Source: a virus (Duplodnaviria; Caudoviricetes). Taken from it: a stretch of DNA of 50,485 nt. The stretch lies in IMG/VR virus record IMGVR_UViG_3300037467_001076, positions 1 to 50,485 of that record; one strand, given 5' to 3'. The notes under the pieces were generated by a model that was not told the DNA's origin, ran no database searches, and was given only the letters and a program-made list of their open reading frames with translations. Of this stretch, positions 2,312-50,454 are shown piece by piece. The translations under genes were made by a program, and so were the position numbers. The stretch's first letter is position 1. Each line of letters starts with the position of its first letter.

Positions 2312-2327
2312 GCGAGGAAGATGCGTA

Positions 2328-3924: not shown

Positions 3925-3927
3925 GCT

Positions 3928-5159: not shown

Positions 5160-5168
5160 TCGACATGA

Positions 5169-5237
5169 CGACCCAAAACGCCTCCTGTGCGACTACGTGT
5201 AGGTGAACCACCGAACGGCAGTAACGTGCAGGAGGCG
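5169..5237 (+). promoter_or_regulatory. Putative phage-specific promoter inside an SD-sequestering hairpin
   Basis: CGACCC-N14-GCGACTACGT; CGCCTCCTG (5179-5187) pairs with CAGGAGGCG (5229-5237). Confidence 0.6.
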
Positions 5238-5242
5238 ATCCT

Positions 5243-5701
5243 ATCGACGAAAGGATGCGATCATCCACGGATACGAACCGCAAAGGCGCTCTATCAGAAA
5301 TGACAGTTGAGATCGACTTGGTTCAGCGAGGATTCGTCGTCGGTCGTCCGTTCCCGATCACCGTCTACGACCTCCTGGTCGACGATGGATCGACGGTCGA
5401 CGTTGACGGCGTGAAGTATGCGCTCCTGAAGCGCGTACAGACGAAGACGGCTCGCGTAGAGTCGCGTACCATCGACCCAACGATGAAGGTGTCGCTTGAT
5501 CCGCCGTACGCGAAAGGCGACTACGACGTTCTGGCGATTGTGCGACCGGAGACGTCAGAGACGTTCTACATCGCCAGCGACGAGTTGAGCGATGGACAGA
5601 CGTCCGTGACGCTCAAGTGGATTGAGGCGACTGTGAGCGACGGGACGTATTGGGTCGAGAAGTATCGAGATTGGCCGATGAATACGAAGGGAGACGATTG
5701 A
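5243..5701 (+). CDS. PD-(D/E)XK endonuclease, PDDEXK_5 / I-Ssp6803I-like
   Basis: KGALSE...RGFVV..P....YDLLVD...KRVQTKT. SD AGGAGG points to ATC5243; alternative ATG5255. Confidence 0.7.
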   Translation: MDERMRSSTDTNRKGALSEMTVEIDLVQRGFVVGRPFPITVYDLLVDDGSTVDVDGVKYALLKRVQTKTARVESRTIDPTMKVSLDPPYAKGDYDVLAIVRPETSETFYIASDELSDGQTSVTLKWIEATVSDGTYWVEKYRDWPMNTKGDD

Positions 5702-5702
5702 A

Positions 5703-5978
5703 ATGCTAAAGGTCGTCGTGAAGACGCAGGAACCGAAGGATGCGCCGCATGTCGAGCCGGTCGTTCCGGGCGTTTACCTCAACACGAAGGAGAACGAGTA
5801 CCGACTGCTCGTACGAATCGACGATCGCCTACAGTCGATCATGCTCCGCAACGGCGCTCTCTATGACGGGCATAACGCGCTTGGCGATGAGGCGTACATT
5901 CGCTGTGCGATCGCCGATGGCTGGTACGTCCTCGTCGAGAACGCGGAACTGCACATAACGCCGAAGGAGGGCGCTTAG
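5703..5978 (+). CDS. Hypothetical protein, tandem paralogue 1
   Basis: SD present; shares PG.VY...L.NG...NA.L.I pattern with the next two ORFs. Confidence 0.7.
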   Translation: MLKVVVKTQEPKDAPHVEPVVPGVYLNTKENEYRLLVRIDDRLQSIMLRNGALYDGHNALGDEAYIRCAIADGWYVLVENAELHITPKEGA

Positions 5979-5981
5979 TCG

Positions 5982-6266
5982 ATGAACATCGTTGACCAGC
6001 GCACCGAGGCGAAGAAGGAGCGCGTACCCGTCGTACCAGGCGGTGTCTACGTTCAGGGCGAGAGTGCGATGCTGCTCGTGACCGAATCGAAGAGAGTCGG
6101 AATGTGCGACTACATCGACCTTCTCTACTTCGTCTCGCTGACCAACGGTGAGCGACTCACGGATTCGTACTCCAGCGTCGGCATCGACAACGTGATTCTC
6201 AACACGCCTGACTCAAATATCACGTACATTCCCGACGCAACGTTGGTCTTGAAGGGAGCGCGATAG
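5982..6266 (+). CDS. Hypothetical protein, tandem paralogue 2
   Basis: SD; PVVPGGVY...SLTNGE...YIPDATLVL. Confidence 0.7.
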   Translation: MNIVDQRTEAKKERVPVVPGGVYVQGESAMLLVTESKRVGMCDYIDLLYFVSLTNGERLTDSYSSVGIDNVILNTPDSNITYIPDATLVLKGAR

Positions 6267-6270
6267 CACG

Positions 6271-6528
6271 ATGAAGATCGAGGTCATTCGCAAGGAGTCG
6301 AAGCCGGTCGATGTCGAGTTGCACGTAGGCGGGGTTTATCGTCAGACGCTCGGCGACAATACGTTCCATTACGTTCTCACGAAGGCGAGCGACGGCTATC
6401 GCCTCGTTTGCCTCAACGACGGCGAGACGGACGAGGAGGCTTCGACCGAGGACGAGATTAAGTCCACGATCAAGACGTGCGACCTCGTCTACGTCCCGAA
6501 CGCACGACTGGTCATCGACGAGGGGTAG
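6271..6528 (+). CDS. Hypothetical protein, tandem paralogue 3
   Basis: SD; VGGVY...CLNDGE...YVPNARLVI. Confidence 0.7.
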   Translation: MKIEVIRKESKPVDVELHVGGVYRQTLGDNTFHYVLTKASDGYRLVCLNDGETDEEASTEDEIKSTIKTCDLVYVPNARLVIDEG

Positions 6529-6573
6529 GCGCTTAGGCGTCACTCCTCGATTCCATATCGAAAGGGGTATCGG

Positions 6574-8955
6574 ATGGACTCGACTCACATCGCACGAACC
6601 GTTCTGGAGAAGCGCTATCTACGACTCAAGCCCGATGGAACGAAGGAGACGCCGAACGAGATGATCGATCGAGTAGCGACGACGATCGCTTCTGTCGATA
6701 AGGCGTATGGCGCGACTGATGACGAGGTCGAACGACTCGGCGACGCCTTCTATCGCATGATCGACGACCAGGACTTCATGCCGAACTCGCCGACGTTCAC
6801 AGGCGCAGGAACGCCGCTCGGCCAGATGAGCGCCTGCTTCGTTCTTCCCGTCGATGATTCGCTTGCCGACATCTACGAGACGATGAAGCGTGCTGCGCTG
6901 ATCCACCAAACGGGCGGCGGGACGGGATTCGCGTTCTCTCGCCTACGTCACGACGGCGCATCGGTTCGATCGTCGGGAGGCGTTGCAAGCGGTCCTGTGT
7001 CGTTCCTCAAGGTCTACAACGCATCGACCGAGGCGATCAAGCAAGGCGGCACGCGTCGAGGCGCGAACATGGGAATGCTTCGAGTCGATCATCCCGACAT
7101 TCTCGACTTCATCCACGTCAAGGACGATCTATCGCAGGTTACGAACTTCAACATCTCGGTCGCGATCACCGACGAGTTCATGCGAGCGGTCGAGGAGAAG
7201 CGTTCGTACGACCTCGTGAATCCGAAGGATGGCGCGGTCGTCGGTCAACTCGACGCGAACGACGTCTGGACGCAGCTCATCGAGTCGGCGTGGAAGACCG
7301 GCGAACCAGGCGTGATCTTCATCGATCGCGTGAATCGTCGTCATCCGAACAACCACGTTGAGACGATCGAGGCGACGAACCCTTGCGGTGAGCAACCGTT
7401 GCCTCCGTACGGTTCCTGCACGCTTGGATCGATCAATCTCGCTCGTTTCGTCCTAAACCCGTACACGCCTCACGCACACGTCGATTGGTCACGCCTCGCG
7501 AAGATCACGCACCTTGCCACGCACTTCCTTGACAACGTCCTCGACGCGAATACGTACCCGATCGATGAACTGCGTCAGAAGGCGATGGCCGACCGTCGCA
7601 TCGGACTCGGCATCATGGGATGGGCGGAGATGCTCGTTCAGCTCGGTCTAGCGTACGACAGCGACGAAGGATGCGCGAAGGCTCGTCAGGTCATGTCGTT
7701 CCTTAAGCAGGAGAGCGTGACCGAATCGTCTCGTCTCGCCTTGGAGCGCGGCGTCTACCCCGAATGGTACGGCTCGGCGTGGGAGGCGGCAGGCGTCAAG
7801 GTTCGCAACGCAACGCTGACCACGATCGCACCGACTGGCACGATTTCGATCCTCGCCGCGACGCCGACGATGCCCGTTTCGGGCGGTTGCGAGCCGAAGT
7901 TCGCCCTCGCGTTTACTCGCAATCAGGCGGGTGAGACGATGATCGACGTTGACGGTCAGTTCGCTTCGATCGCCAAGAACGAAGGCTGGTATTCCGATGC
8001 GCTAATGGAGCGCATCGCAGCGAGCGGTTCGTGCCGTGGCGTTGAGGGCGTTCCTGAGCGTTGGCAGCGCGTCTTCGTCGTCGCCAACGAGATTTCGCCT
8101 GAAGCGCACGTAGCGATGCAGGTCGCGTTCCAGGGCGAGGACGACCTCGACGTGATCGACGCACCGATCGACTCCGCCGTGTCGAAGACCGTCAACTTCC
8201 CGAACCATGCGACGATCGACGATGTGCGCACCGTCTACGAGATGGCGTGGACGCACGGCTTGAAGGGCATCGCCGTCTATCGCGATGGTTCACGCTTCGG
8301 GCAAGTGTTGAGCGTGGGCACGACGACTGAGGCGAAGAAGGACGACGACGCGACGATCACCGTCGAGACGATTGTCAAGGCGATTACCAGCGGCGAGACG
8401 CCCGAAGGCGCATACGTACACACGATCACGCTCGATGGTCCTTCGTTCACCAAGCGCCCGTCGCGCGTCTACGGCTTCACCGACAAGATCCACGTCACGA
8501 TCGGCGAGAAGACGACGAAGGCGTATGTGACGATCAACATCGACGAGAACGGACAGCCCTTCGAGGTCTTCGTCAACGCGAACGACGCGACGATCGCTGA
8601 CACGGCTCAGGCGCTCGGTCGAATGGCTACGCAGATGCTTCGCTACGGCGGGACGAGCGATAACGTCGCTCAAGTCGTCGATCATCTTCGTCGCGGTCAG
8701 TCGTCGATGTTCTCGCTGCCGTCGCAGGTTGCGAAGATGATCGATGAGGTCGCGTACAAGGGCGTGAAGTTTCCCGGTAAAGAACGAGTCATCCAGCGAC
8801 CGCCCGTCGAAGGGACGATTCCTCTCGCAGAGATCGAACGCGTCGTCGGCGAAGTGCGTAAGTCGCGCCTGGTCGAGTGTAGCGAGTGCGGCCAGAAGGC
8901 GTTCGACAAGGCGTCATGCGTCTGCCGCGAGTGTGGCGCGTCGAAGTGTTCGTAA
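6574..8955 (+). CDS. nrdJ: Class II (B12-dependent) ribonucleotide reductase with C-terminal TSCPD/zinc ribbon
   Basis: [53 protein letters not shown], terminal CxxC..CxCxxC..SKC; no adjacent beta subunit. Confidence 0.92.
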
Positions 8956-8971
8956 CAAACGAAGGGAGACG

Positions 8972-9157
8972 ATGGAAGCGATGAACGAGAAGTCGCAGAG
9001 CGAGAAGGTCGCGGAGTTGGTTGAGTCGATTAAGGTGGCATTTCCCGATGCCGTACGCGTTCAAGTCGATGTGAGCGGCGAGGGATACTCGGTTGAGCCG
9101 ACCTATGCGAAGACCGAGTTCAATTCGATCAGGACGCTTTCAGGCGAACTCGCATAA
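8972..9157 (+). CDS. Hypothetical protein
   Basis: SD AAGGGAG before ATG8972/8981. Confidence 0.6.
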   Translation: MEAMNEKSQSEKVAELVESIKVAFPDAVRVQVDVSGEGYSVEPTYAKTEFNSIRTLSGELA

Positions 9158-9176
9158 GCGAAAGGAGGAGCGACGG

Positions 9177-9383
9177 TTGACGAAGATTTGGTACGTCATC
9201 GCTGGAAGCGTACCTCTGAACGCTCATGTCGAGGACTTCGATCAGACGATGCGCGACTGGCGGCGAGGTATGAACCTCACGATGTTCCGACAGACATACG
9301 ACGAGTCGGCGAAGGAGTATCGCCTTGTCGAGTTCGAGGCACGCGGAATGCCGGTCGTCGCGATCGGGCGCGAACTGTTCTAA
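9177..9383 (+). CDS. Hypothetical protein
   Basis: SD AAAGGAGG before TTG9177. Confidence 0.6.
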   Translation: MTKIWYVIAGSVPLNAHVEDFDQTMRDWRRGMNLTMFRQTYDESAKEYRLVEFEARGMPVVAIGRELF

Positions 9384-9397
9384 GGGAGGCGTTTCAT

Positions 9398-10180
9398 ATC
9401 GACCCTTCCTCGCTTCGGGTCGAACCATACGTCGCAGAATCGATGGATGACGCTCGCGTCCAGGCGCTCGACTTCTACGTGAATCAGTACGTGATCGTCG
9501 CTGGCGAACCAAAGCGATTCGACGGACGCCAGCTCATCGATGTGCGGTCGAAGCCGATCAAGGACTTCGAGCCGATGAACGTCGAGCAGCGCTGTCTATT
9601 CGATCTGTTGGGCAACGACGATATTCAGGCTAAGTTCGTGCGAGGCGTCGCAGGTTCAGGTAAAACGAAGTGCGTCATGCAGTTCGGCCTCTCGAAAGTC
9701 CTCGACGGCAAACGTTTCGACCGATATCTCGTCGTTCGCAACCCCGTTCCTGTCGGTCCTCAAATCGGCTATCTCAAAGGCGATTTGGGCGCGAAGTTGG
9801 CGCCGTGGCAGAACGCGATCGTCGATAATCTGCCGAATGGCCGCAAGGACTTCGACTATCTTGTTTCAAAGGGCGCTCTCGAATGGGACATACCGGCCCT
9901 TATGCAAGGGCGAGACTTGCGCCGAACGTTTATCCACGTTACCGAAGCGCAGATGCTCACGTTCGAGCAATTGCAGATGCTCGGTTCGCGGGCGTCACAC
10001 GGCGCAGTCATCGTGTTCGAGGGCGACGAGAAGCAAGTCCTCAACGATGCCTACGTTGCCAACAACGGTTTACGCGATATCGTCGGTAAGCTCGTTGGCA
10101 ATCCCGAAATCGGGTACATGCGGCTAACGAAGACCGTTCGCAGCCGCGTGGCCGAGTTGTTCGCAGGGCTGTCGAAGTAG
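9398..10180 (+). CDS. phoH: PhoH-family ATPase
   Basis: P.NVEQ, Walker A GVAGSGKT, IGYLKG, MQGR, EAQ, GDEKQ, RSRVA. SD GGGAGG points to ATC9398; the ORF-track start at 9188 overlaps the upstream gene. Confidence 0.88.
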   Translation: MDPSSLRVEPYVAESMDDARVQALDFYVNQYVIVAGEPKRFDGRQLIDVRSKPIKDFEPMNVEQRCLFDLLGNDDIQAKFVRGVAGSGKTKCVMQFGLSKVLDGKRFDRYLVVRNPVPVGPQIGYLKGDLGAKLAPWQNAIVDNLPNGRKDFDYLVSKGALEWDIPALMQGRDLRRTFIHVTEAQMLTFEQLQMLGSRASHGAVIVFEGDEKQVLNDAYVANNGLRDIVGKLVGNPEIGYMRLTKTVRSRVAELFAGLSK

Positions 10181-10300
10181 GTCGCCCTGGTCTGCTATGT
10201 ACGATTGCACGGAGTTCCGAAGGAACGAGTGGTAACGCGATCGGTGCGGAGTCCCGTTGCGGAGATGTTCGCGAAATTGAACTGACGTAGGAGGTGCGGT

Positions 10301-10594
10301 GTGAAGCGTCTGTGGCGGTTCTATTGGGACTGCGGTCGTCAGGGCGACGTTGAGAGCGTCTTCGTCGCAACAGACGAGGAAGTCGAGGAGGCGATCGGCA
10401 AGCGCATCTACTTCGGCGAAATCCTCGGTAAGCACAGCGAGGTTCACGGCACGCTCGAACGGAGCGACTTGACGCGACTCGACGTGAGCAACGAGGCGAT
10501 CGAGGAAGTGACGAAGATTCTCGGCGAGACGTGGAGCGGTTACAATCCGCTTCGATACGTCCGAGACGAAGAGGACGAAGAAGAGGACGAGTAA
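10301..10594 (+). CDS. Hypothetical phage protein (DCGRQG / EILGKHSE motifs)
   Basis: SD AGGAGGT; acidic tail. Confidence 0.7.
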   Translation: MKRLWRFYWDCGRQGDVESVFVATDEEVEEAIGKRIYFGEILGKHSEVHGTLERSDLTRLDVSNEAIEEVTKILGETWSGYNPLRYVRDEEDEEEDE

Positions 10595-10747: not shown

Positions 10748-11296
10748 ATGCGGATCAACTACGACGACCCGAACGCGGCGAAGGAGATTGCGGCTGAACT
10801 CGGTTATCTAGCGACTCTGTCGATGCCTGTCGATGCGAAGCTGTGCGTTGTAGGCGTTGGGCACGCGCCGACGATGAGCGACGGACTCGGCCCATACGTC
10901 GGAACGCGTCTCAAGGCGATTCTTGGCGATCAAGTCACGGTCATCGGCACGATGGAGGACTGGGTCGGCGCGGGTCGAGTCGGTGAAGTCGCGGTTGCGC
11001 TTCAGGCGGTAGGCGAGGTGTACTGGACGATCGCGGTCGATGCGGCGGTCGGCCAGCAGATTGGACGTCTAGGCGTGTACGACGAGCCGCTTCGTCCAGG
11101 CGCAGGACAGGGCAAGTCGTTAGCGTCGCTGGGCGACGTTTCGATCATGGGCTGTACGGGTCTAAGCGGTCTTGACGTTCTCCTCGATCGGTGCGACCCC
11201 GACATTGTCCGTCGTATGGGCGATGTTGTCGTGGAAGGCATCGTCGATTTCGTCGCTCGGCTCGACGGGATTCGCATGGAGGCGATAAGCGCATGA
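10748..11296 (+). CDS. yyaC: YyaC-family (GPR-like) spore protease
   Basis: VVGVG....SDGLGPYVGT, VIGT, IAVDAAVG, PLRPGAG..K.L..LGDVSI.G match the YyaC pattern GDSLGP.VG / IDA.LG / PLKPGAG / VGD. Confidence 0.8.
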   Translation: MRINYDDPNAAKEIAAELGYLATLSMPVDAKLCVVGVGHAPTMSDGLGPYVGTRLKAILGDQVTVIGTMEDWVGAGRVGEVAVALQAVGEVYWTIAVDAAVGQQIGRLGVYDEPLRPGAGQGKSLASLGDVSIMGCTGLSGLDVLLDRCDPDIVRRMGDVVVEGIVDFVARLDGIRMEAISA

Positions 11297-35012: not shown

Positions 35013-36674
35013 TTAAGTGCTTCCAAGCGTGCCGAGAACGACCTTACGCTGCTTCGTGAACAGCGAAACGGCCATTTCAAGCGCATCTAATAAGTCGCGC
35101 TTGGAAGATTTCGGAAAAGTTTCGAGCTGCGTCAAGAGGTCGAGTTGATGACGTGCGACACGCACGTAACCACTCGAAATCGTGGGTTCCATCGCCTTGA
35201 TCCGATCATCTTTCGGGATATTCTTCGTGTCGTACGGTCGAAGCGGAATATAGACGTGATGCTTCGCGGCTTCCTCGATGATCTTTTCTCTGTAGTAGCT
35301 TTGGAAGGCCGTATTATCCGCGCAGCCATCGACGAACTTGTATCGATTCGTCAGGTTGAATAGATACTTAACGCTCACGTCGGGATGCTCACGTACTGCT
35401 CGCGCCTCAAGCACATACATCAAACCCGTCTTCTTCGACCGCCCCAAAACGATTGTCGCCGTAAGGTCGCTTCGCTTCGTCTTCGACATCGAAGGGTCGA
35501 GTGAGAAGACGATTTCGAGTTCCTTCGGATCGATGTCTTCGGGACTATAGAACGTCCACTGACGGAAGAGACGTGTCGAAGCGTCGGCACAAATGTTCAT
35601 AAATTCGGAAAGAAAGCTAGACCGTCTAGTCGCCCAGATCGTCATGAGCGCCTTCAAGCCCATGCGTTCCGGCCAGAGAACGACCGCTCCTTCGTGAAGC
35701 GCGTCCTTGTTCGCCTCATAGAACTCTTCGGCCTTGCGACCTGCGATGCGAGCCGCTTCTATCGGTGTGTCGCCTTCAACGCGATCGTTGAGGATGCGTG
35801 CGTACTCTTCCCAAAGATCCAGGCGATTCGGGTATTCGACGATCGCGCTGTAAACACGTACGTCCCAATCGGGCATCTCCGTCAGAACCGAATAAAAAAG
35901 ACTGTTCTGCGAAAGAACAGTACCTACGTAAATTATGCGCGTTCTGGCAGGAGTTCCCAGTTGCTGAACCGTTTTATTGAACCATTCCTTGAGGAACGCC
36001 ACGCGCACTTCCGATGAAACGTCAGAATCTTCTTCAAGATCATCTGCGACCACGACGGGACGATACGACAGGTAGCGCAGACCACGCAAACTCTCGCCTG
36101 CGCCCGCTGCTTGTAATCGACAGCCGTTCGCTTCGCACTCAATCGCATTCCATCGCGATTGATTTTTCATCGATCCGAAGTCGGCGATTAGCTTTTCGTT
36201 GAACTCGATCTCGTTCTTGACAATATCGAGGAAGCGACGAGCACCGTCTTGCTTGGCCGAGATGATGACGAAGTATCGCTCGCCGATGTCCTCCGCGTAG
36301 CAGACGCACCAGAGTATAAAGATGTTGTTCGCCAGGGTCGTCTTGCTATGGCTTCGAGGAGCGGCGATCGCGAGTTTCTTCGTCGTCGGCGCGAGCATCA
36401 TACTGCGAAGATCCGTCGCAATCTCGTAGTGGAACGGCGGCGACGGCGTTGACGGATGCATGAGTCCCGTTTCGCTCATGCAGTACGTCTTGGCGAATTC
36501 CATGATGTCTTGGAACCCCGTCTCAATTCGCTTCCACTTCGCCAGCTCTCGCAGATATTCCGCGTACTTCTTCGCTTCCTCGCCTTTCAACTCGCCGGCT
36601 CTACGTTTCGTCGCATACAACTCGGTCAGTCTCGTCAGTTGCTCGATCTTAGCGAGCCGTTCCGCCTGCTTCAA
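35013..36674 (-). CDS. terL: Terminase large subunit
   Basis: APRSHSKTT, RGLR, VVADDLE, VGT, LDPS...SD.TA, FP....D.LDALEMA. Confidence 0.93.
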   Translation of the reverse strand: MKQAERLAKIEQLTRLTELYATKRRAGELKGEEAKKYAEYLRELAKWKRIETGFQDIMEFAKTYCMSETGLMHPSTPSPPFHYEIATDLRSMMLAPTTKKLAIAAPRSHSKTTLANNIFILWCVCYAEDIGERYFVIISAKQDGARRFLDIVKNEIEFNEKLIADFGSMKNQSRWNAIECEANGCRLQAAGAGESLRGLRYLSYRPVVVADDLEEDSDVSSEVRVAFLKEWFNKTVQQLGTPARTRIIYVGTVLSQNSLFYSVLTEMPDWDVRVYSAIVEYPNRLDLWEEYARILNDRVEGDTPIEAARIAGRKAEEFYEANKDALHEGAVVLWPERMGLKALMTIWATRRSSFLSEFMNICADASTRLFRQWTFYSPEDIDPKELEIVFSLDPSMSKTKRSDLTATIVLGRSKKTGLMYVLEARAVREHPDVSVKYLFNLTNRYKFVDGCADNTAFQSYYREKIIEEAAKHHVYIPLRPYDTKNIPKDDRIKAMEPTISSGYVRVARHQLDLLTQLETFPKSSKRDLLDALEMAVSLFTKQRKVVLGTLGST

Positions 36675-37165
36675 TTGACAACGTCACCGCCAAGCTCACG
36701 CTCCAGGCGTTCAATCTCGCTCTCGACGTCGTCCTGACGCTTGTCCTCGACCGAAACGTTAGCCTCGACGGTGCGTACTTCCTTGAGCATCCCGCGACTC
36801 TTCATAAAAAGTTCGACGAACTTCGAATTCCCCGCCTCAAGCCCCTTCTTCATCGCTGCGACGAAGATCGGGTATAGTTCGCCATAGACGCTCTCGGCGA
36901 CTTCCTGCGCGTATTTCTTGAACGCAGGCTTCTCGTTCATATACCGCTGGACGCTTCGAAGCGAGAACCCGCTCTTCTCCGCGAGCTGTTCCTGCGTGGC
37001 GCCAAGCATCGACGGATCGCATAGGAGATAAGCGAGCTTGACCGCAGAGGACGACCACGCGCCTGCCTCGCCGTCCTTCTCGTCAGGGTCGACGCCCTTC
37101 GCCTTTGCGTCAATCCTCGCCTGGACCTTCTTGTCAACGAAGATCTCACGCTTTTGCTTCGCCAT
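36671..37165 (-). CDS. terS: Terminase small subunit (HTH)
   Basis: TQEQLAEKSG.S.RSV.RY HTH directly upstream of terL. Confidence 0.75.
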   Translation of the reverse strand: MAKQKREIFVDKKVQARIDAKAKGVDPDEKDGEAGAWSSSAVKLAYLLCDPSMLGATQEQLAEKSGFSLRSVQRYMNEKPAFKKYAQEVAESVYGELYPIFVAAMKKGLEAGNSKFVELFMKSRGMLKEVRTVEANVSVEDKRQDDVESEIERLERELGGDVVN

Positions 37166-37203
37166 TTCGTAATCACCTTCTCTTGCGTCGATTTGTCGAA
37201 AAT

Positions 37204-37247
37204 AGTACGTACGTTCGCTTGTCAGCGTCGTCGTAAGCGACTATAAT
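37204..37247 (+). promoter_or_regulatory. LexA (Cheo/SOS)-box-like site abutting a sigmaA promoter
   Basis: AGTACGTACGTTCG (37204-37217; one mismatch to GAAC-N4-GTTC), then TTGTCA-N17-TATAAT. Confidence 0.65.
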
Positions 37248-37301
37248 TGGAAACAGTTGGAAGACCCCGCACGACGGCGACGACAACGAGGAGGAATCGA
37301 C

Positions 37302-37610
37302 GTGAGCGATCTTCTTGACCAGACGATGGAAGCGCTCAAGGCGACGACCGAACGACCCTTCGACCCCGCCGCCCAAGAACGTCACGCCACGCTTCTCGCC
37401 GCTTCAAACTCGCATTACAACGCTGCCAGCGCTTTCGCAACCGCAGCGTGGCTCTATCGTCGTAACCACGACTACAGCGCCGCCGTACGCATGACGCTCC
37501 ATGCATCGACGCTTTATCGCAAGGCGTTCTGCGAAAATCTCGCAGATGCGATGCTGAATGACGCATCTCGCATGGCGCAGAAATACGGCGTGACGTCTCA
37601 TGCGCGATAA
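37302..37610 (+). CDS. Small all-alpha TPR/SNAP-like protein (102 aa)
   Basis: SD GAGGAGG + GTG; AA..F..AA.LY / AA....HA..LY helical repeats; has its own promoter. Confidence 0.65.
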   Translation: MSDLLDQTMEALKATTERPFDPAAQERHATLLAASNSHYNAASAFATAAWLYRRNHDYSAAVRMTLHASTLYRKAFCENLADAMLNDASRMAQKYGVTSHAR

Positions 37611-37742
37611 GCAACGCATCGACGACGTGAACGATTCGCCCATAAACAAGCGAGGCGGTTCGCCCAAATCGACTCCACGAAGGGTCTGACGCTCACGCGT
37701 CTTGCCCTTGTTCAAACTCGGTTCTCACAAGGAGGTGTCGCC

Positions 37743-37892
37743 ATGCGTCGTTTCGTATCGCTTCTAGTCGCCATGATCGCCCTGGTCGCTTTTGCATCGT
37801 TCGCCAGCGCCGAAGGTCGTCCGATCGTTCCGCAAGGACGTGACCTTGTCGTTCCCCAAGAGGGCCGTCCCATCGTTCCTTCGGCGATGTAG
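37743..37892 (+). CDS. Secreted propeptide with three 8-aa repeats (putative signalling peptide precursor)
   Basis: SD AAGGAGGTG; MRRFVSLLVAMIALVAFASFASA | EGRPIVPQ GRDLVVPQ EGRPIVPS AM*. Absent from the ORF track. Confidence 0.75.
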   Translation: MRRFVSLLVAMIALVAFASFASAEGRPIVPQGRDLVVPQEGRPIVPSAM

Positions 37893-37928
37893 ACGACCCG
37901 TTCCGTCTCTCAATCACTCACAAGCTCC

Positions 37929-37976
37929 GACGAGAAAAGCGCCTCCCGCGAAGGGAAGCGCCTACTCGTCGTTTTG
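37929..37976. terminator. Bidirectional terminator
   Basis: CGACGAG..GCGCCTCCC-GCGAA-GGGAAGCGC..CTCGTCG-TTTT. Confidence 0.6.
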
Positions 37977-38013
37977 CTCGTTTCACAGGCGCACTCACGC
38001 CCATCGGCGAGCT

Positions 38014-38200
38014 GTATCGTCATCGTCGGCAGGTGACAATCTGCATTTCCAATCGCTAGGCCACGTGTGACACGCGCTTTCGCGTGGTGACGGATGCCTG
38101 TTCCGTCCTCGACGATGATCGGTTATTGCGTCTCCGACCGATTGTTAGCGTTGCGCAGTCGTTCGGTGGCGACAGCATAACCGTCGTATCGGTTCAGGTG
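38014..38200 (-). ncRNA. Candidate multibranched structured RNA
   Basis: 9-bp stem 38020-28/38110-18 encloses three hairpins, one with a GAAA tetraloop on the minus strand; no convincing ORF. Confidence 0.3.
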
Positions 38201-38233: not shown

Positions 38234-38584
38234 TTACTTCGTAAAGCCGATCGTCTTCTCGCTCTCCGTCTCGTCCTCCGCGCCTACAGGCGAGATAGCG
38301 AGGTTGACCGCCTGTTCGCTAAAGTCGATCGACGACTTCTTCGACAGACCGCTCACAGCGCGGTACAGACCCGCCGTAGTCGCGCCGGCGATCACACCCG
38401 CCTGAAGCGCAGCCTGGACGCTTCCGCCGAAAATGAGCGCGTTGGCGACGTTGAGCGCACCAGCGATAACGATCGTCAGAAGGGCGTTCAAGTCGCTCGT
38501 GAACAGCGACGGTAACTTTCGCTTGCCGTACTCAACGAGTCCAACCGTCAGAATCATGATGACCTCGATACTAAGCGTCTCCAT
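38234..38584 (-). CDS. Holin-like membrane protein
   Basis: I..LTVGLVE..K and G.IAG....GLY; 2-3 TM segments. Confidence 0.65.
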   Translation of the reverse strand: METLSIEVIMILTVGLVEYGKRKLPSLFTSDLNALLTIVIAGALNVANALIFGGSVQAALQAGVIAGATTAGLYRAVSGLSKKSSIDFSEQAVNLAISPVGAEDETESEKTIGFTK

Positions 38585-40413: not shown

Positions 40414-40857
40414 CTATCGCACGCTCTCGACGAGCCGATCAACCTCGCTGCAATCTCGCCCCGCACGCTCCCCAACGCTCGAATAACATTCGGCGAATAG
40501 GTCGGCCAGGCGTTCGTCTTGCGACCAGCGATATTCAGCGGCGAGCGCGTGGTACGATTCGTGGACGCTCAACCGCCTGATCGTCGGTTCGTACCACCAT
40601 CGCCATTCCTCGACGACGATCACCGTCTTGACCGGCGTGGGCGTAATGATCGTGATCGCGTCCCTCTCGCGTGTATCGAACGAGGCGACCGACATCGTTG
40701 GAAGCGTGATGATCGCATCGATGCGACTCAGCTCGTCCAAGACGACGTTCATCATCGCCTCGCGTCCCTGACGTACGATTGTCGAGGTAGCGTTCGCCAT
40801 CGGCGCGATCGTCGCCAGAGCGAGTAGAGCGGTAAGAAAAGCGATGCGTCGAAACAT
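40414..40857 (-). CDS. Secreted HExxH zinc metallopeptidase-like protein (ImmA/IrrE-like signature)
   Basis: SD GGAGGTG; signal peptide MFRRIAFLTALLALATIAPMANA; VHESYH...DERLADLFA. Confidence 0.65.
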   Translation of the reverse strand: MFRRIAFLTALLALATIAPMANATSTIVRQGREAMMNVVLDELSRIDAIITLPTMSVASFDTRERDAITIITPTPVKTVIVVEEWRWWYEPTIRRLSVHESYHALAAEYRWSQDERLADLFAECYSSVGERAGRDCSEVDRLVESVR

Positions 40858-40966: not shown

Positions 40967-41335
40967 CTACTTCAGCGCCACGCCGTAACTCGTTCGACCG
41001 CCCCCGCCGACCATCGAACACGACGAACTCGACGTGCGCTTGACCGTATTCGGGAACATCACGCCGACCGCGAACTCGATCGTCTTCTCGCGTACAGGGG
41101 CGATTGATTCGGCCAGCGTGCACGTCGCCGACCGCGCCTTCGCCGCACAGTTCGCTCCGTCGTACAAACACGACCCGACGACTCCTGCCGCCACACCGCA
41201 GATCAGAACGCCTTCAGCGGTCGTGCAGACGCTCAGGCTCGATTTCGGACGAGCGCTGCGCTGTCCAGCCGACGCAGGCGAAACGATGAGAACGACGAGC
41301 AGGATCGACACGACGAGACTTAACGCCTTTCGCAT
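40967..41335 (-). CDS. Secreted six-Cys protein with hydrophobic GxxxG segment
   Basis: SD AAGGAGG; signal peptide ending PASA; six Cys; GVAAGVVG. Confidence 0.65.
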   Translation of the reverse strand: MRKALSLVVSILLVVLIVSPASAGQRSARPKSSLSVCTTAEGVLICGVAAGVVGSCLYDGANCAAKARSATCTLAESIAPVREKTIEFAVGVMFPNTVKRTSSSSCSMVGGGGRTSYGVALK

Positions 41336-41429: not shown

Positions 41430-41512
41430 CGACACCACCTCGCTATGTTGTCGTATCAATCGCTTCCGCCCGTTTAGTCGAGTTGGGAATCGTTGGAAGC
41501 GACTGTATCGAC

Positions 41513-41542
41513 ATCATAGCACGCGATGGAAATGATTGTCAA
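41513..41542 (-). promoter_or_regulatory. sigmaA-type promoter (extended -10)
   Basis: TTGACA-N18-TATGAT with TG at the extended -10 position. Confidence 0.6.
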
Positions 41543-42475
41543 CGCCTTATGCGAAGGTGATGCGAGAACTATCGTATAGTGAGCGAGAAGGGCGATTTCC
41601 AACGATTGGAAGACGATGTAGAACGCAACGCCGCGAAATTTTTCGGGCGACGTGGCATGTCGATTGAGTCGAATGACAGGCGAGGGTGGCTCGTACTCGC
41701 TTCGCTCGCACGATCGCACAGGCTCGTCTCTTCGAGACTCGGTGTACCGCTCGGTCCTTCGGACCTCCGCGTGGCACGTCCAACATCGATAGCCATCGAT
41801 CAGAATCGCGTCCGAACGATTAGGCGTGAGATATCGACAGCGTTCGTGATTGGCAGCGAGGTAATCGACTTCCATCGATTGACAGCGTGAAGTATCGTCG
41901 AAAACGCGGAAATGCGTCGACAAGTTGGCGTATCGTCTAGGCGCTTGTGGGTCGCTCTTGCTCGTCGGTGGCACGTCTCCATGCGCCTTAGACGCCTCAA
42001 ACGACGCTATATCGCCATTCTCGCCAATCGCTACAAACCGCCATGCCACGCCATTCATACGATGATGCTTGCAAAACCGCATGAATACGAGGTTTGAGCG
42101 ATGCGATATCGTGGTATGAGCGTATGAGGCGAAAGTTTTTCGATAAGAGACGTCTTGCCGCGCAACTTAGCGCGACGCGTTATCGATGCCATACGACGTA
42201 TCTCGATGCAGTCTCGCCTACATGCGCATATCCTCGTATCAGCTCGCCTGGTAGCGTCCGTCAACGTGGCCGAACGACGTCCATAGGACCACGCCGGCAG
42301 CGACGACGGAACGACCAAAGCGCATGGCGCCTATTTCGTACCAATCGAAAATAAAACGTGGGTATCGTAGGGGCGGGGGTAGCACGTCGGAGAAACGACG
42401 AAGGCGCCTCCCGCGAAGAGAAGCGCCCCAGGTCGTATAGATGCGATCGGCGATCGCTGGAGGCGACTTAATGCG

Positions 42476-42517
42476 CCTCTCACTATATAGGGGACAAAAT
42501 CGACCAAAACGCGACAA
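42476..42517 (-). promoter_or_regulatory. Putative phage-specific promoter
   Basis: TTGTCGCG-N17-CCCTATATAGTGAGAGG; near-repeat at 43805-43846. Confidence 0.55.
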
Positions 42518-42553
42518 CTCCAAACGCTTTTTTCAAATATTTCTCGCCTGGTC

Positions 42554-42847
42554 CTAACTCTTCGCCTTAGAGTGCCGGTCGGATCTCGTTCCCTGGCGCA
42601 TGAGCTGCGCATCTGTGTAGATGGGCGGTCGATCGTTGGATCTGCGCCTCTTCGTCTGATCGCTCAAATCGTCGTGTAAGATCACGTTCGCCAATCGCTC
42701 TAAGAGCGCGGGGGAAGGCGTTTCTCCTCGCGCCTGTACGTATCGCTCAATCAAATCGTTCGTCGCCTTCTTGCGTCTCTCAACGTTCATTCCCTTCGCT
42801 TTAGATTCAAGTTCTGCGACTTCCTTCGTAAACTGTTCGTTGGTCAC
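42554..42847 (-). CDS. Hypothetical phage protein (LERLANVIL..DL.D)
   Basis: SD AAGGGG + GTG; promoter motif at 42933-42963. Confidence 0.7.
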   Translation of the reverse strand: MTNEQFTKEVAELESKAKGMNVERRKKATNDLIERYVQARGETPSPALLERLANVILHDDLSDQTKRRRSNDRPPIYTDAQLMRQGTRSDRHSKAKS

Positions 42848-43148
42848 GACTACACACGCGCCCCTTAGCGTTTAGTACGTCGGCCACAACAGACAAGGTC
42901 TGACGCGGGCCGGCGTCGCTGCGCTATACTCGTATGTAGTCGCAATATAAGCGTCAGGTGTCGCCAACGAACGAAAAAAGCGCTTGCCCCTATTGGATCT
43001 TCTTTTCTTTCTTCTTCCGCCCCTATGCCCTATGTTTCATAGATCGAATGAAATGTGTGATAGACTATCATTTATCATCTACGAACGATAGTGAGTAGAT
43101 GATAAATCTGTCTTTGTCTCGATATGCGCTAAAGCGTCTCGTATATTA

Positions 43149-43252
43149 TGGATATCGTTATATGGATATCGTTTATTGGATCTAGTTAGTCGTAAGAATC
43201 CTTACGTATCCACCGAAAGAATCCTTACGGGTGTAGCGTAAGAATCCTTACG
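43149..43252. repeat. Iteron-like repeats, putative replication origin
   Basis: CG(T/A)AAGAATCCTTACG at 43191, 43214 and 43237 (23-bp period); TGGAT(ATC/CTA)GTT at 43149, 43163 and 43177 (14-bp period); AT-rich flank. Confidence 0.7.
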
Positions 43253-43676
43253 TTGGTTCGCCTTCTCGCTTCCTCCTCACCCGTCTCGCCTTCTCGATGT
43301 TCGCAGGATCAACGTTGCGAACGACCGGCGTCGTATCAGGGTCGATTCTCTTCGGTTCGGCGCCGAATATCGTGACCTGGCACCAATCGGCGATTCGATA
43401 GACGTTGTTGCCGTACGAACCGTTGTTGCGCCTCTCGACGGTTACGATCGGTCTGCCGTTCCATCGAAACTCGCGCATCTTGCGTAGATAGGCGTTTAGA
43501 GTCGGTTCACTCACGCCCAATTGATCGGCTAACTGCTTCTTTGTCGGCCAGCATACGCCTTCCTTGTTCATGTACGACGCCAGAACGAGTAAAAGCGCGA
43601 TACAGTCCGGTCCCAATCTCGCCCCTAATCCCGATCGCCAAAACGATACATAGACCTTTGCGAACACTCCCGACAT
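43248..43676 (-). CDS. HTH-type phage replication initiator
   Basis: LL.LASYMN..G.CWPT..QLA..LGVS..T....L...N.Y; iterons at the 3' end. Confidence 0.75.
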   Translation of the reverse strand: MSGVFAKVYVSFWRSGLGARLGPDCIALLLVLASYMNKEGVCWPTKKQLADQLGVSEPTLNAYLRKMREFRWNGRPIVTVERRNNGSYGNNVYRIADWCQVTIFGAEPKRIDPDTTPVVRNVDPANIEKARRVRRKREGEPT

Positions 43677-43804
43677 TCTGCGATCCCCTTTCGCCAACTA
43701 TCCCCATACGTGATTAAATCGACAGGGAAGCGATTGGGGTTGTCGCTTGTCGGCCCGCGAAGCCTATCCCTGCCGATGCCTATTGGTGGATTTCGCTAAA
43801 AGAT

Positions 43805-43846
43805 CCTCTCATATATAGGGCATCTAAAACGCCCTTTTCGCGACAA
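43805..43846 (-). promoter_or_regulatory. Putative phage-specific promoter
   Basis: TTGTCGCG-N18-CCCTATATATGAGAGG. Confidence 0.55.
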
Positions 43847-43913
43847 GGTTAAGTGAAGTCGAAACTAACGTTATCTATCGATCGATACGTTTTGATAGAT
43901 AACGCCTATAACG

Positions 43914-44031
43914 CAAAATAGACGCCTCCCCACGATCGCAGACGACTAAGCGCCTGCCATACGTCGCCCCAAAGGGGCAGGCGTGGCCGGTCGCTTTGTG
44001 TGTCGATGCGTTACGTTGAGGGGCGTCTATA
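43914..44031 (-). ncRNA. Candidate ~115-nt sRNA
   Basis: Begins just after promoter motif 44036-44066; the ends pair (ATAGACGCC/GGCGTCTAT) and are followed by TTTT; internal hairpins. Confidence 0.4.
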
Positions 44032-44331
44032 CCGCTATGTAGTCGCTACCTGGTCGATCTGTGCCGACATTCGAACGTCGTGCCGCCTCAACGAAAAAGC
44101 GCCGTAGCGACTCACCTTCGCTTACGACGCCTGCACTCGTATTCCTTCGTATGAGGCGCTAGGAGAGGCGTTTTCCATCGACCCTATACGTGGGTATCCC
44201 CTTTCGGCTGTAGGCGATTGTGGCAATTCTTACGCCTGTAGTCGGGTATATCGATTGGCTCTACAGGCGGGTTTGCGGGTTGGCGATTATTGACAAATAA
44301 TGTGGTTTGGCGATCCTGGTCGATGAGATAA

Positions 44332-45217: not shown

Positions 45218-45246
45218 ACGTTATCACCGTATACGACGATAGTCAA
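45218..45246 (-). promoter_or_regulatory. sigmaA promoter with shared ACGGTGA spacer motif
   Basis: TTGACT ATCGTCGTATACGGTGA TAACGT. Confidence 0.6.
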
Positions 45247-45323
45247 GCGGGATTTTACGATTTTTTCGATGGAACGTGAGAGAGGCGCCAACCTGCGATG
45301 GGGAGGCGCCTCTTGTGCGTGGT

Positions 45324-46330: not shown

Positions 46331-46359
46331 ATCATATCACCGTCTCATACGAAGATCAA
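46331..46359 (-). promoter_or_regulatory. sigmaA promoter with shared ACGGTGA spacer motif
   Basis: TTGATC TTCGTATGAGACGGTGA TATGAT. Confidence 0.6.
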
Positions 46360-46597
46360 GCGCCTTTTGCGAAAATCGCACGAAGATTTTTCGCTTCATC
46401 TATAGGAGCGAGAGAAGTGCCGAACCGATGCCATGCGGCCAGCTCGCCAGGATCGCAGCAAGGCGCCGGCGTCGATGATGCCCGACTCTTGACGCATGGC
46501 AGGCGACTTGATACGGTTAGAGCGAGAGGCGCCTATACCGTAATGTAGGCGCAGGATCTCGCTTAGGCGTCGCACGAAAAATTCTCGAAAATGACGC

Positions 46598-46626
46598 TTG
46601 ACTATCGGCGTATACGGTGATACGAT
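46598..46626 (+). promoter_or_regulatory. sigmaA promoter with shared ACGGTGA spacer motif
   Basis: TTGACT ATCGGCGTATACGGTGA TACGAT. Confidence 0.65.
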
Positions 46627-48232: not shown

Positions 48233-48272
48233 CGTAAATGGAAACATAAAGATTACGTTAACATCGATAAAT

Positions 48273-48316
48273 AGAACGCACGTTCGCTTGTTAAGATCGT
48301 ATCAGGACGATATAAT
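48273..48316 (+). promoter_or_regulatory. LexA (Cheo/SOS) box abutting a sigmaA promoter
   Basis: AGAACGCACGTTCG (GAAC-N4-GTTC), then TTGTTA-N17-TATAAT. Confidence 0.75.
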
Positions 48317-48352
48317 ACGTAGTAAAGACGCCCACAGAACGAGGTGACAGCG

Positions 48353-48991
48353 ATGCCAACGCAGGTTGAGCGCATGGACGAGATGATGCGATTCTTCGGA
48401 TTCGTAAACCCGCGATTCCCCGATCAGGTGTCGGCCAACGCTCTGGCCGCGTTTGTAGGCGTCACCAATCCGACAGCCGTGCGCTGGCAGCGCGGCGAGA
48501 TACGCACACCCGACGAAGTATGCGACCGGCTCGGCATCAACACCGCCTGGATCGTCGGTCGCTCTAGCCGCATGTGGAGCGAGGCGTTCGAGGAGACGCG
48601 CCGCGAGATTCGCGCCAAGTTAGCCAGGCGTGACTGGTCGACTGTGACGAGAACCGCACGAGTCGCGCAGGCGCTCGACATGGCGCGTGCGACGGACTTC
48701 CGTCTGTTTACGTGCGAGTTGGTATCGTCAGTCCTTCGCCTCGACGAGAAGACGATTCGGGCGATCGGCGCAGGAACGACGTCGGTCAACGACGGGACGA
48801 TCAAGCGCCTGAGCGAGTGGCTGGACGTGCCGATCGCCTGGTTCAAGTCAGGCGATCCGAAGACACTGCGAGACGTGGATTGGACGCATCCAATCGAGAA
48901 GGCGATCAAGTCGGGACTGAGCGCCGGCGACGTCGAGCGACTGATCGAACGGTTCGTGAAGGAGCGCAGAGACGTCGAGTCGCTGATGTGA
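48353..48991 (+). CDS. Double XRE-HTH transcriptional regulator
   Basis: ALAAFVGVT..TA.RW.RG...LGIN.AWI; second unit L.L...TI..I..G......I.RL..WLDVP..WF..G. Confidence 0.75.
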   Translation: MPTQVERMDEMMRFFGFVNPRFPDQVSANALAAFVGVTNPTAVRWQRGEIRTPDEVCDRLGINTAWIVGRSSRMWSEAFEETRREIRAKLARRDWSTVTRTARVAQALDMARATDFRLFTCELVSSVLRLDEKTIRAIGAGTTSVNDGTIKRLSEWLDVPIAWFKSGDPKTLRDVDWTHPIEKAIKSGLSAGDVERLIERFVKERRDVESLM

Positions 48992-49047
48992 CGCCAATCG
49001 ACCTATACACCATGTCAACGTATCTAGCCGCAATCATACGTTATAGC

Positions 49048-49092
49048 AAACGACAAGACCGCTTGGAGCGTTTCCAAGCGGTCTTCGTCGTT
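49048..49092. terminator. Bidirectional terminator
   Basis: AAGACCGCTTGGA-GCGTT-TCCAAGCGGTCTT. Confidence 0.7.
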
Positions 49093-49109
49093 ATGGTCGG
49101 TTCAGGCGA

Positions 49110-49235
49110 CTAGCCCTTGACGTTAGCCGTGAAGCACGCGTCGGGACCGCCTCCGCTACTGCAAGCGGAGACGATCGGAGCGGCGATCGCGGAGACGACG
49201 AGAAGCACGAGAGCGACGATCGAAACCTTGTGCAT
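49110..49235 (-). CDS. Secreted 41-aa propeptide with two Cys (putative RRNPP-type signal precursor)
   Basis: SD AAGGGGG; MHKVSIVALVLLVVSAIAAPIVSA-CSSGGGPDACFTANVKG*; starts 12 nt after the TPR gene stop. Confidence 0.72.
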   Translation of the reverse strand: MHKVSIVALVLLVVSAIAAPIVSACSSGGGPDACFTANVKG

Positions 49236-49247
49236 CGAATTACCCCC

Positions 49248-50144
49248 TTATTCGATATTCGGCACGCCTCGCTTTACCATGTCGAGTTGATCTCGAAGGT
49301 ACGGCGAGCCGTTGTCGCAGAGCAGCATGGCGAGCTGGTGGGCGAGCCAGAACGAGTCGATGTCGCCGATCGCCTTGTACGCACAGCAGCGATACAGGGC
49401 GATCTCACCCATTGTAATCGTCTCCTTCAACCCTGCCGCGAGCCTGTACGCCTGGTCGAGCGGAGCGCGAGCGTCGTTGACGCGCCCTTCGTAAATGGCG
49501 ATGACGCCACGAAGGAACTTCGTCCAGCACTCGACAGACGACGCACCTTCGCCCTTTTCGGCTAAGTCAGCCCAGCGCCTGGCGTCGTCAAGATAGCCGA
49601 GCCGAGCGCAGCATAGACCCACATGAGCCGCTGCTGATCGTTTATAGCCGTCATAGCCGCTCTTTGGGTCGCACACCGCAAGAACGCTCATCGTTTCGAT
49701 CGCCTCGTCGAGACGGCCTGTCGCCATGAGGATTCGACCAACGTTGAACGTGTGGAGCGCATGAAACGTGGGGAAATCGTAGAGAGCGAAAAAGCGATCA
49801 GCCACGACCTTGACGCGCTCCATCTCGCCGATGGCACCGAGCATGTACGAGAGATACGAGGCACGAACGATGGCCTTCGCGTGTGTCTCGACGTCCTCGA
49901 CGGGACACTCGGTTACGGCGAGAATCGCCTTCAACGCCTCGTCGCTTCGGCTCGGATACTCGAAAGCCGTGACATGTGCGTTCCAGTACGTGATGACCGT
50001 CGAGGGAGCGTCGCTGACCGTCAGCTCGTCGTCGATGATGCGACGGGCGAGCGGTAGATCACGCTTGGACACACGCATGGCTTCGGTTAGTCGTTCGACA
50101 ATCGCATGGTACGATGCCGGAACCGGCGGCGATGCGTGAGCCAT
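49248..50144 (-). CDS. TPR-repeat protein (putative RRNPP-like peptide receptor, no evident HTH)
   Basis: N.G.I....G..DEA, VG.C...LG..DDA..W, G.I....G....A...L.QA TPR consensus; SD GAGGAGG + ATG50144. Confidence 0.75.
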   Translation of the reverse strand: MAHASPPVPASYHAIVERLTEAMRVSKRDLPLARRIIDDELTVSDAPSTVITYWNAHVTAFEYPSRSDEALKAILAVTECPVEDVETHAKAIVRASYLSYMLGAIGEMERVKVVADRFFALYDFPTFHALHTFNVGRILMATGRLDEAIETMSVLAVCDPKSGYDGYKRSAAAHVGLCCARLGYLDDARRWADLAEKGEGASSVECWTKFLRGVIAIYEGRVNDARAPLDQAYRLAAGLKETITMGEIALYRCCAYKAIGDIDSFWLAHQLAMLLCDNGSPYLRDQLDMVKRGVPNIE

Positions 50145-50229
50145 AGCGACTCCTCCTCGATTCAGGTCGATGGTTGCGTGTTGCTTCGTGTATGATTCGT
50201 TGGAACAGCGAGACATTCCTGCTAGGTCG

Positions 50230-50259
50230 AGTGTATCACCGTGTACGACGATTTGTCAA
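50230..50259 (-). promoter_or_regulatory. sigmaA promoter with shared ACGGTGA spacer motif
   Basis: TTGACA AATCGTCGTACACGGTGA TACACT. Confidence 0.6.
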
Positions 50260-50454
50260 CGATCAACTATCGTCTTTTGCGAAGATTCGCCCGACGAATC
50301 GTAGCGACTCTTACGAATAGATTCGCAAGGGCGTGACGTCGATGTGACGGTCGCCTCATATTTCGATAAGTCGCGTAAGAAGGCGATTGTCCTCGCAGCA
50401 CAAACTTCGATCACCTCGACTACTTCTCGCTAAATAGGCGAGGAGGAAGCGGTT

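What the first reader, a model, noticed from the sequence alone, without database searches (positions are those of the whole stretch)
37201..37976. SOS-box-controlled island: mini-TPR protein plus secreted propeptide with three repeats (candidate new phage communication system)
Seen: an opposite-strand unit directly ahead of terS, made of a LexA-box-like site with TTGTCA-17-TATAAT, a 102-aa helical TPR-like gene, a 49-aa ORF absent from the ORF track, and a terminator. The ORF has a strong SD, a Sec signal ending A-S-A, then EGRPIVPQ-GRDLVVPQ-EGRPIVPS. Established: RRNPP systems (Rap-Phr, AimR-AimP) pair a TPR receptor with a downstream secreted propeptide; Phr pentapeptides typically have Arg at position 2, as GRPIV and GRDLV would, and some precursors carry duplicated signals. 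The putative receptor is about a third of normal RRNPP size and has no HTH. Inference: a DNA-damage-induced peptide signal with two variants, positioned to influence late-gene expression or lysis-lysogeny.
Basis: partly seen in the sequence, partly recalled or inferred. Interest (0 to 1): 0.88.

Follow-up and report, generated by a model that had tools for sequence, protein, structure and literature searches.

The report
Phage damage-induced peptide signal, miniature receptor
A soil phage carries a two-gene unit behind a likely DNA-damage switch, coding for an unusually small helical-repeat protein and a predicted exported peptide whose repeated seven-residue word is identical to that of a chromosomal sensor-plus-peptide pair in Symbiobacteriaceae, so the phage likely signals in its probable host's own peptide language.

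Summary
In detail: promoter, LexA-type box, 102-aa TPR-like gene, 49-aa signal-peptide ORF with three repeats, and a terminator. Both genes are under protein-level selection and stay linked in other strains. A 40%-identical mini-TPR probably shares a contig with a two-copy version of the peptide (inferred from equal contig length).

New here: the word EGRPIVP also opens a chromosomal propeptide in a Symbiobacteriaceae genome, behind a 287-aa HTH-less TPR. That family is widespread: 22 of 30 loci have a propeptide, 9 with an x-x-R-P-I/M start. The phage also carries a full-size module of this type (TPR, peptide, XRE) at 48353-50144. The scan noted that three-gene family before in another prophage (e1-6395092), but not this mini-TPR unit.

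The peptide is very likely a real RRNPP-type signal, probably a 7-8-mer rather than a Phr pentapeptide. Mimicry of a host signal is the main rival. Nothing shows control of late genes.

The parts
37205..37216 (.). LexA-type box (GTAC-N4-GTTC), directly upstream of the -35 hexamer
   Evidence: sister box 48274-48285; no listed difference in 37193-37256 in the 3 runs that cover it; same box at Symbiobacteriaceae lexA promoters
37219..37247 (+). sigma-A type promoter TTGTCA-17-TATAAT
   Evidence: 11 of 12
37230..37241 (.). second palindrome GTCG-TAAG-CGAC inside the promoter spacer; possible phage operator
   Evidence: 4 matches against 0.78 expected; 0 of 100 shuffles reach 4
37289..37294 (+). 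Shine-Dalgarno of the mini-TPR gene
37302..37610 (+). 102-aa TPR/SNAP-like protein with no HTH (candidate miniature receptor); its last helices come in two alleles around 37499-37560
37729..37736 (+). Shine-Dalgarno of the propeptide gene
37743..37811 (+). predicted Sec signal peptide, residues 1-23, ending A-S-A
   Evidence: sequence; hydropathy scan; SignalP not available
37812..37892 (+). mature region: EGRPIVPQ (37812-37835), GRDLVVPQ (37836-37859), EGRPIVPS (37860-37883), short tail and stop
37928..37971 (.). hairpin; terminator for the converging holin-side transcript, probably bidirectional; the sequence beyond 37975 differs between strains
48269..48316 (+). sister promoter with a perfect GAAC-N4-GTTC box (48274-48285) and TTGTTA-17-TATAAT
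48353..48991 (+). 212-aa XRE-type regulator, related to the regulators that converge on chromosomal TPR-propeptide pairs
49110..49235 (-). second propeptide, 41 aa, with SD and signal peptide; mature part starts with Cys (lipobox-like) and holds a second Cys
49248..50144 (-). 298-aa HTH-less TPR protein (ORF open to 50216), full-size receptor candidate of the second module

Best explanation
The unit is a two-gene operon, likely switched on when DNA damage removes host LexA, whose predicted exported propeptide would be cut into 7-8-residue signals of the Symbiobacteriaceae RRNPP-like type, and these are most likely read by the 102-aa TPR-like protein encoded beside it. Shown: the anatomy; selection on both reading frames; linkage in other strains; identity of the word EGRPIVP with a chromosomal propeptide; a family-wide TPR-propeptide-XRE layout; the same box at lexA promoters of that family. 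Inferred: LexA repression and SOS induction; Sec export and cleavage after Ala23; trimming to two EGRPIVP(Q/S) and one GRDLVVP(Q); re-import by an oligopeptide permease; binding to the mini-TPR. The mini-TPR has no DNA-binding domain, so it would act like Rap, by holding a protein target until peptide builds up. The likeliest target is an XRE regulator such as 48353-48991, which sits behind the sister box. The net effect would be that induced or infected cells announce themselves and damp further lysis. Because a chromosomal propeptide carries the same word, cross-talk with host receptors is predicted.
For: The order and gap (TPR, 132 nt, propeptide, hairpin) copy the chromosomal pairs, whose gaps are 0-216 nt. 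With the signal part held fixed, the mature part scores 35.8 bits against a profile of 21 chromosomal propeptides (L114 left out); 0 of 500 shuffles reach that, and the two-copy variant P0021 also gets 0 of 500. Linkage: single contigs span promoter, both genes and hairpin at about 95-96% identity in 2 of 8 runs (X3 record 23, X4 record 27). JGI variants of both genes share contig lengths of 22656 and 3611 nt. The 40%-identical P0026 and the two-copy P0021 share a contig length of 1234 nt (circumstantial). The mini-TPR's best alignment to the chromosomal receptors falls on their conserved central repeats, positions about 100-187. The phage's XRE and 298-aa TPR match the chromosomal module. Precedents: LexA plus peptide control in phage phi106 (10.1101/2021.09.20.460909, passages); duplicated pheromones in phage Phr (PMC11343458, Introduction).
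Against: The mini-TPR is 102 aa; validated receptors are 285-473 aa (PMC10075063, passages). Its match to the chromosomal receptor profile (3-11 bits) lies below the median of generic TPR windows (17 bits, n=24), and two of the four sequences (5.6 and 3.2 bits) score under the best shuffle (8.1), so descent from those receptors is not shown. The Asn kept in 22 of 27 chromosomal receptors is not kept in either register. Only one distant relative exists among 1.84 billion representatives, and none in 210 genomes of the class, so co-variation could not be tested. The host is inferred only: no spacer-like match in 19 genomes over 40 kb of the window and no terminase relative in 101 genomes. No integrase among 54 ORFs scanned; the record is 86% complete. 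The island box has one mismatch.
Confidence: 0.45

Rival explanations
1. Host-signal mimicry: the phage overproduces a copy of a host pheromone on induction to drive or jam chromosomal ~290-aa receptors (and so sporulation or other density-dependent programmes), while the mini-TPR is a separate effector or a decoy that binds a host receptor or regulator.
For: The word is identical to the propeptide beside chromosomal receptor L114, and near-identical words sit beside others (L137, L144, L116). Two or three copies would raise the dose. The mini-TPR lacks the family's conserved Asn. The phage also carries a YyaC-type spore protease, which suggests it acts on sporulation.
Against: The exact word was found as a propeptide in only 1 of 15 family genomes; the other pattern hit, L118, is not a propeptide. 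Similar words sit beside receptors only 25-26% identical to L114, so keeping the word while the mini-TPR diverges does not need an outside target. The TPR-then-peptide order is kept.
Confidence: 0.3
2. The peptide is a second ligand for the phage's own 298-aa TPR (49248-50144), giving an SOS input into the TPR-XRE module; the mini-TPR is an accessory.
For: The 298-aa protein has receptor size and a Pfam TPR match, and its C-terminal half aligns to the chromosomal family (hhalign probability 85.6). The XRE of that module has the sister box.
Against: It has its own adjacent propeptide (49110-49235). Its alleles diverge to 60-65% while the island word stays fixed.
Confidence: 0.1
3. Not signalling: two SOS- or phage-regulated accessory genes, for example an exported inhibitor peptide and an unrelated helical protein; the box may be an operator for the phage's own XRE rather than for LexA.
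For: No binding or expression data. The only two such boxes before strong promoters include the XRE's own promoter, which fits autoregulation.
Against: The mature part matches a receptor-linked propeptide family specifically (0 of 500 shuffles); the box matches lexA promoter boxes in 5 of 5 family genomes.
Confidence: 0.15

Closest known systems
Rap-Phr cassettes of Bacillus phages phi3T and phi105 with duplicated pheromones (PMC11343458, abstract and Introduction read)
   Same: HTH-less TPR gene followed by a Sec propeptide carrying several identical or varied copies; phage-borne.
   Different: Receptor here is 102 aa, about a third of validated receptor size; no sequence match to Rap; the word starts directly after the signal site and is 7-8 residues; LexA-type box on the operon itself.
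Arbitrium AimR-AimP of phi106-type phages (10.1101/2021.09.20.460909 and 10.1101/2025.11.23.689978, passages read)
   Same: Phage peptide signal joined with LexA control.
   Different: There LexA acts on aimX downstream and AimR binds DNA; here the box precedes the TPR and peptide genes, there is no HTH and no aimX/aimC/aimL layout beside the island.
Rap-Phr-Rco of plasmid pLS20 (recalled, no call)
   Same: HTH-less TPR protein thought to act on an XRE repressor, gated by a peptide; matches the TPR-peptide-XRE layout of the chromosomal family and of 48353-50144.
   Different: The island has no XRE of its own; a target is only inferred.
Chromosomal TPR-propeptide(-XRE) family of Symbiobacteriaceae (noted by the scan as e1-6395092; not found in print by my searches)
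   Same: Same signal-peptide build and mature word; same gene order; duplications in 3 of 22 propeptides.
   Different: Receptors are about 260-310 aa with a conserved Asn, Arg pair and Trp; the island protein is a third of that and not shown to be homologous.

Membership tests
RRNPP(A) systems (criteria of PMC10075063) | small propeptide, 10-100 aa | tested here: met
   49 aa; variants of 33-49 aa
RRNPP(A) systems (criteria of PMC10075063) | Sec signal peptide | tested here: met
   basic start, hydrophobic core (mean hydropathy 3.16 over 10 residues) and A-x-A; judged by rule, SignalP not available
RRNPP(A) systems (criteria of PMC10075063) | receptor of 250-500 aa | tested here: not met
   101-102 aa (116 with a longer start call) in all relatives; longer forms were open, which found only generic repeat proteins
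RRNPP(A) systems (criteria of PMC10075063) | receptor matches TPR HMMs at E<1e-5 | tested here: not met
   no Pfam TPR family for the window protein; P0026 SNAP E 0.0046; profile against designed TPR E 2e-4 and Sec17 E 0.0045: TPR-like, below the threshold
RRNPP(A) systems (criteria of PMC10075063) | adjacent genes, -60 to 400 bp | tested here: met
   132 bp, same strand
RRNPP(A) systems (criteria of PMC10075063) | mature peptide binds the receptor | not testable with these tools
Rap-Phr | sequence homology to Rap; Phr-type pentapeptide | tested here: not met
   no Rap family or structure hit; conserved word is 7-8 residues with Arg third
Arbitrium (AimR-AimP-AimX) | AimR with N-terminal HTH; aimX, aimC and aimL beside aimP | tested here: not met
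   no HTH; a hairpin, a variable stretch and a converging holin follow the peptide
Symbiobacteriaceae TPR-propeptide family | propeptide with family-type mature word after the signal site | tested here: met
   identical word in L114; 0 of 500 shuffles reach the score
Symbiobacteriaceae TPR-propeptide family | homologous ~290-aa receptor with conserved Asn120 and Trp163 | tested here: not met
   mini-TPR scores no better than generic TPR windows and lacks the Asn; the 298-aa protein of the second module does match in its C-terminal half
LexA (SOS) regulon, Gram-positive box | GAAC-N4-GTTC box overlapping the promoter region and bound by LexA | tested here: inconclusive
   one-mismatch box 2 nt before the -35; perfect sister box; same box at family lexA promoters; binding untested, and a phage operator is not excluded

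The most novel reading that the evidence does not exclude
A 102-residue, five-helix protein is a working peptide receptor, a third of the smallest validated RRNPP receptor. The phage switches it on together with a host-identical pheromone on DNA damage, so one signal reaches both phage and host receptors. Such systems would be invisible to every screen that uses the 250-500 aa filter.
Probability: 0.3. Interest if true: 0.88.

Novelty: new variant of a known kind. Interest (0 to 1): 0.72.

Why it matters
Phage peptide communication has been shown experimentally in phages of Bacillus (papers read). This phage likely infects a distant spore-forming soil lineage and carries two peptide modules. 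One uses a word identical to a chromosomal propeptide and sits behind a probable SOS switch. If the mini-TPR binds, it sets a much smaller minimal receptor and points to a class that size-filtered screens miss. If it does not, the unit is a clean case of a phage copying a host pheromone. Either result can be reached with three synthetic peptides and three purified proteins.

Tried and rejected
Structure prediction of the mini-TPR and complex prediction with the peptide were not available (queues full), so there is no model and no binding verdict.

No relatives of the mini-TPR in viral contigs, genome contigs, 15 family genomes or 210 class genomes. The one metagenome hit L002 is a chance match to 35 residues of a long unrelated ORF. 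L001 is a chance peptide match inside a 132-aa ORF. None of 33 viral loci with the peptide pattern is a propeptide (29 translated to the motif), and 61 of the 62 translating genome loci are not (77 loci in all). L118 and L165 are chance matches. P0027-P0030 are generic TPR or ankyrin repeat proteins. No relative of terS or of the 298-aa TPR in viral contigs, and none of the TPR in annotated phages. The mini-TPR and the 298-aa TPR are not alike pairwise.

The second propeptide's mature part is not significantly like the chromosomal family (45 of 500 shuffles reach it). YyaC identity to family genomes is only 27-40%, so it does not fix the host. No spacer-like DNA match (window 1-10485 not searched). 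No RNA holder listed. Run X1 lacks cover over the peptide gene, which proves nothing. Boxes upstream of chromosomal receptors: 0 of 27 exact, 12 of 27 with one mismatch, which does not discriminate. Atlas hits for the peptide were below 0.9. Rejected: the Arg-2 pentapeptide reading, and late-gene control argued from position alone.

Full report
Setting. The window is a 50,485-nt linear phage record, 86% complete, with portal, capsid, tail tube, tape measure, DNA polymerase and ribonucleotide reductase genes, terS and a holin, and a YyaC-type spore protease, which points to a spore-forming Bacillota host. Related DNA occurs in soil and rhizosphere runs. No integrase was found among 54 ORFs scanned. 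A replication initiator with three 17-nt repeats would fit a plasmid-like prophage; that is inference.

The observation. Between terS (36671-37165, minus) and the holin (38234-38584, minus) lies a plus-strand unit: box 37205-37216, promoter 37219-37247 (11 of 12), a 102-aa gene and a 49-aa gene each with a strong SD, and a hairpin. Both frames are under selection: of the strain differences listed (table cut) and 71, 16 of 21 changed codons in the TPR gene and 4 of 6 in the peptide gene are silent, including a two-base Ser switch beside the cleavage site and a stop-to-stop change. The hairpin works better on the minus strand, so it probably ends the holin-side transcript and may serve both. Beyond 37975 the strains differ.

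The box. Alone it is not significant (20 one-mismatch matches, 33 expected). But the only perfect GAAC-N4-GTTC in the window (48274-48285) lies in a sister promoter, 81% identical over 32 nt, at the same distance from a -35/-10 pair. The stretch 37193-37256 shows no listed difference in the 3 runs that cover it, while both flanks vary. lexA promoters in 5 of 5 Symbiobacteriaceae genomes carry three such boxes each, and 3 of 5 recA genes carry one within 300 nt. SOS control is likely, but an operator for the phage's own XRE is not excluded. A second palindrome in the spacer occurs 4 times against 0.78 expected.

Linkage. In 2 of 8 runs one contig spans promoter, both genes and hairpin. Variants of both genes share JGI contig lengths. 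A profile search of 1.84 billion representatives gave 6 hits: the query, one true relative (P0026, 102 aa, 40% identical, E 1.7e-11) and four generic repeat proteins. P0026 and the two-copy propeptide P0021 both have a longest contig of 1234 nt; I infer, but could not show, that it is one contig.

The peptide belongs to a host family. A pattern scan of 185,579 genomes gave 77 loci; 62 translate to the motif and 1 is a short signal-peptide ORF, L063 in a Symbiobacteriaceae MAG. There the word EGRPIVP follows the signal site, behind a 287-aa HTH-less TPR and ahead of a converging XRE gene. Relatives of that receptor occur in 12 of 15 family genomes (40 matches, 30 fetched); a second query finds them in 16 of 210 class genomes, 14 of the family and 2 more of the order. 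Of the 30 loci, 22 have a downstream propeptide; 9 of these start x-x-R-P-I/M and 3 carry duplications. The phage's mature part matches this family even with L114 left out (0 of 500 shuffles). Duplicated members end right after an 8-residue word, so I expect 7-8-mers with Arg third, not Phr pentapeptides.

A second, full-size module. At 49248-50144 the phage has a 298-aa TPR, followed by a 41-aa propeptide and a converging 212-aa XRE behind the sister box. The TPR aligns to the chromosomal family in its C-terminal half (probability 85.6). The XRE matches the chromosomal XREs (E 2e-4 pairwise; 18.7 bits against a profile of 7 others). Three independent genes therefore point to Symbiobacteriaceae or close kin as host, though no spacer or prophage confirmed it.

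Is the mini-TPR the receptor? It looks like SNAP/TPR helices and aligns best to the central repeats of the chromosomal receptors. But its scores (3-11 bits) are below the median of generic TPR windows (17), and the Asn kept in 22 of 27 receptors is missing. It fails the 250-500 aa rule (PMC10075063). I put a cognate, Rap-like miniature receptor at 0.45, host-signal mimicry at 0.30, a second ligand for the 298-aa TPR at 0.10 and no signalling at 0.15. That the peptide is a signal for some TPR receptor is thus about 0.85. Nothing shows an effect on late genes; the box lies 40 nt from the terS start, so a shared effect is possible but untested.

Comparison and novelty. It works like phage Rap-Phr with duplicated pheromones (PMC11343458, abstract and Introduction) and shares LexA input with phi106 arbitrium (10.1101/2021.09.20.460909 and 10.1101/2025.11.23.689978, passages), but it is a member of neither. 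PMC9765709 (passages) describes multi-pheromone and receptor-only systems; the word 'truncated' does not occur in it. Six paper searches (listings only, apart from the papers named) gave no miniature receptor and no Symbiobacteriaceae system. The stored supplement of PMC10075063 has one Symbiobacterium row, a different receptor with a 10-codon ORF; the file was cut when stored, so unseen tables may hold the chromosomal family. bioRxiv supplements were closed and subscription journals are not covered. The pLS20 analogy and the general steps of Sec export and Opp import beyond one search are recalled. The scan had noted the three-gene family in another prophage (e1-6395092) but not this unit. 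Verdict: real, a new variant of a known kind, interest 0.72.

Noticed in passing
window 48269-50260: Complete second module: 298-aa TPR with alleles only 60-65% identical, a 41-aa propeptide with a lipobox-like Cys and a second Cys, a bidirectional terminator (49047-49092) and a converging XRE behind a perfect LexA-type box.
   Followed up: partly
L114-L116, L119-L145, L177-L184 (G001-G015, G113, G058): Large chromosomal family of HTH-less TPR receptors with Sec propeptides, up to 10 matches per genome, often with a converging XRE; some copies (L123, L126, L132) have the XRE but no propeptide found.
   Followed up: partly
window 37499-37560: The last helices of the mini-TPR come in two distinct alleles in otherwise near-identical strains; both occur in run X1. 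Could be a swapped target-binding surface.
   Followed up: no
window 40414-40857 and 40967-41335 (minus): Two more predicted exported proteins: one with an HExxH motif (possible peptide-processing protease) and one Cys-rich; no family match in Pfam, PHROGs or NCBIfam.
   Followed up: no
window 45222-45249, 46335-46362, 46598-46626, 50234-50261: Family of related extended -10 sigma-A promoters sharing a TATCACCGT core; one drives the 298-aa TPR operon. Probably the early regulon.
   Followed up: no
window 10748-11296: YyaC-type spore protease carried by the phage.
   Followed up: partly
window 43191-43697: Replication initiator with three 17-nt repeats at 23-nt spacing, next to a long gene-poor region (about 41500-44300).
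   Followed up: no
window 15189, 37230, 44117, 46300: Palindrome GTCG-TAAG-CGAC four times (0.78 expected); one copy lies inside the island promoter.
   Followed up: partly
window 37975-38190 and 36673-36803: Strain-variable patches: after the island hairpin and at the 3' end of terS.
   Followed up: no
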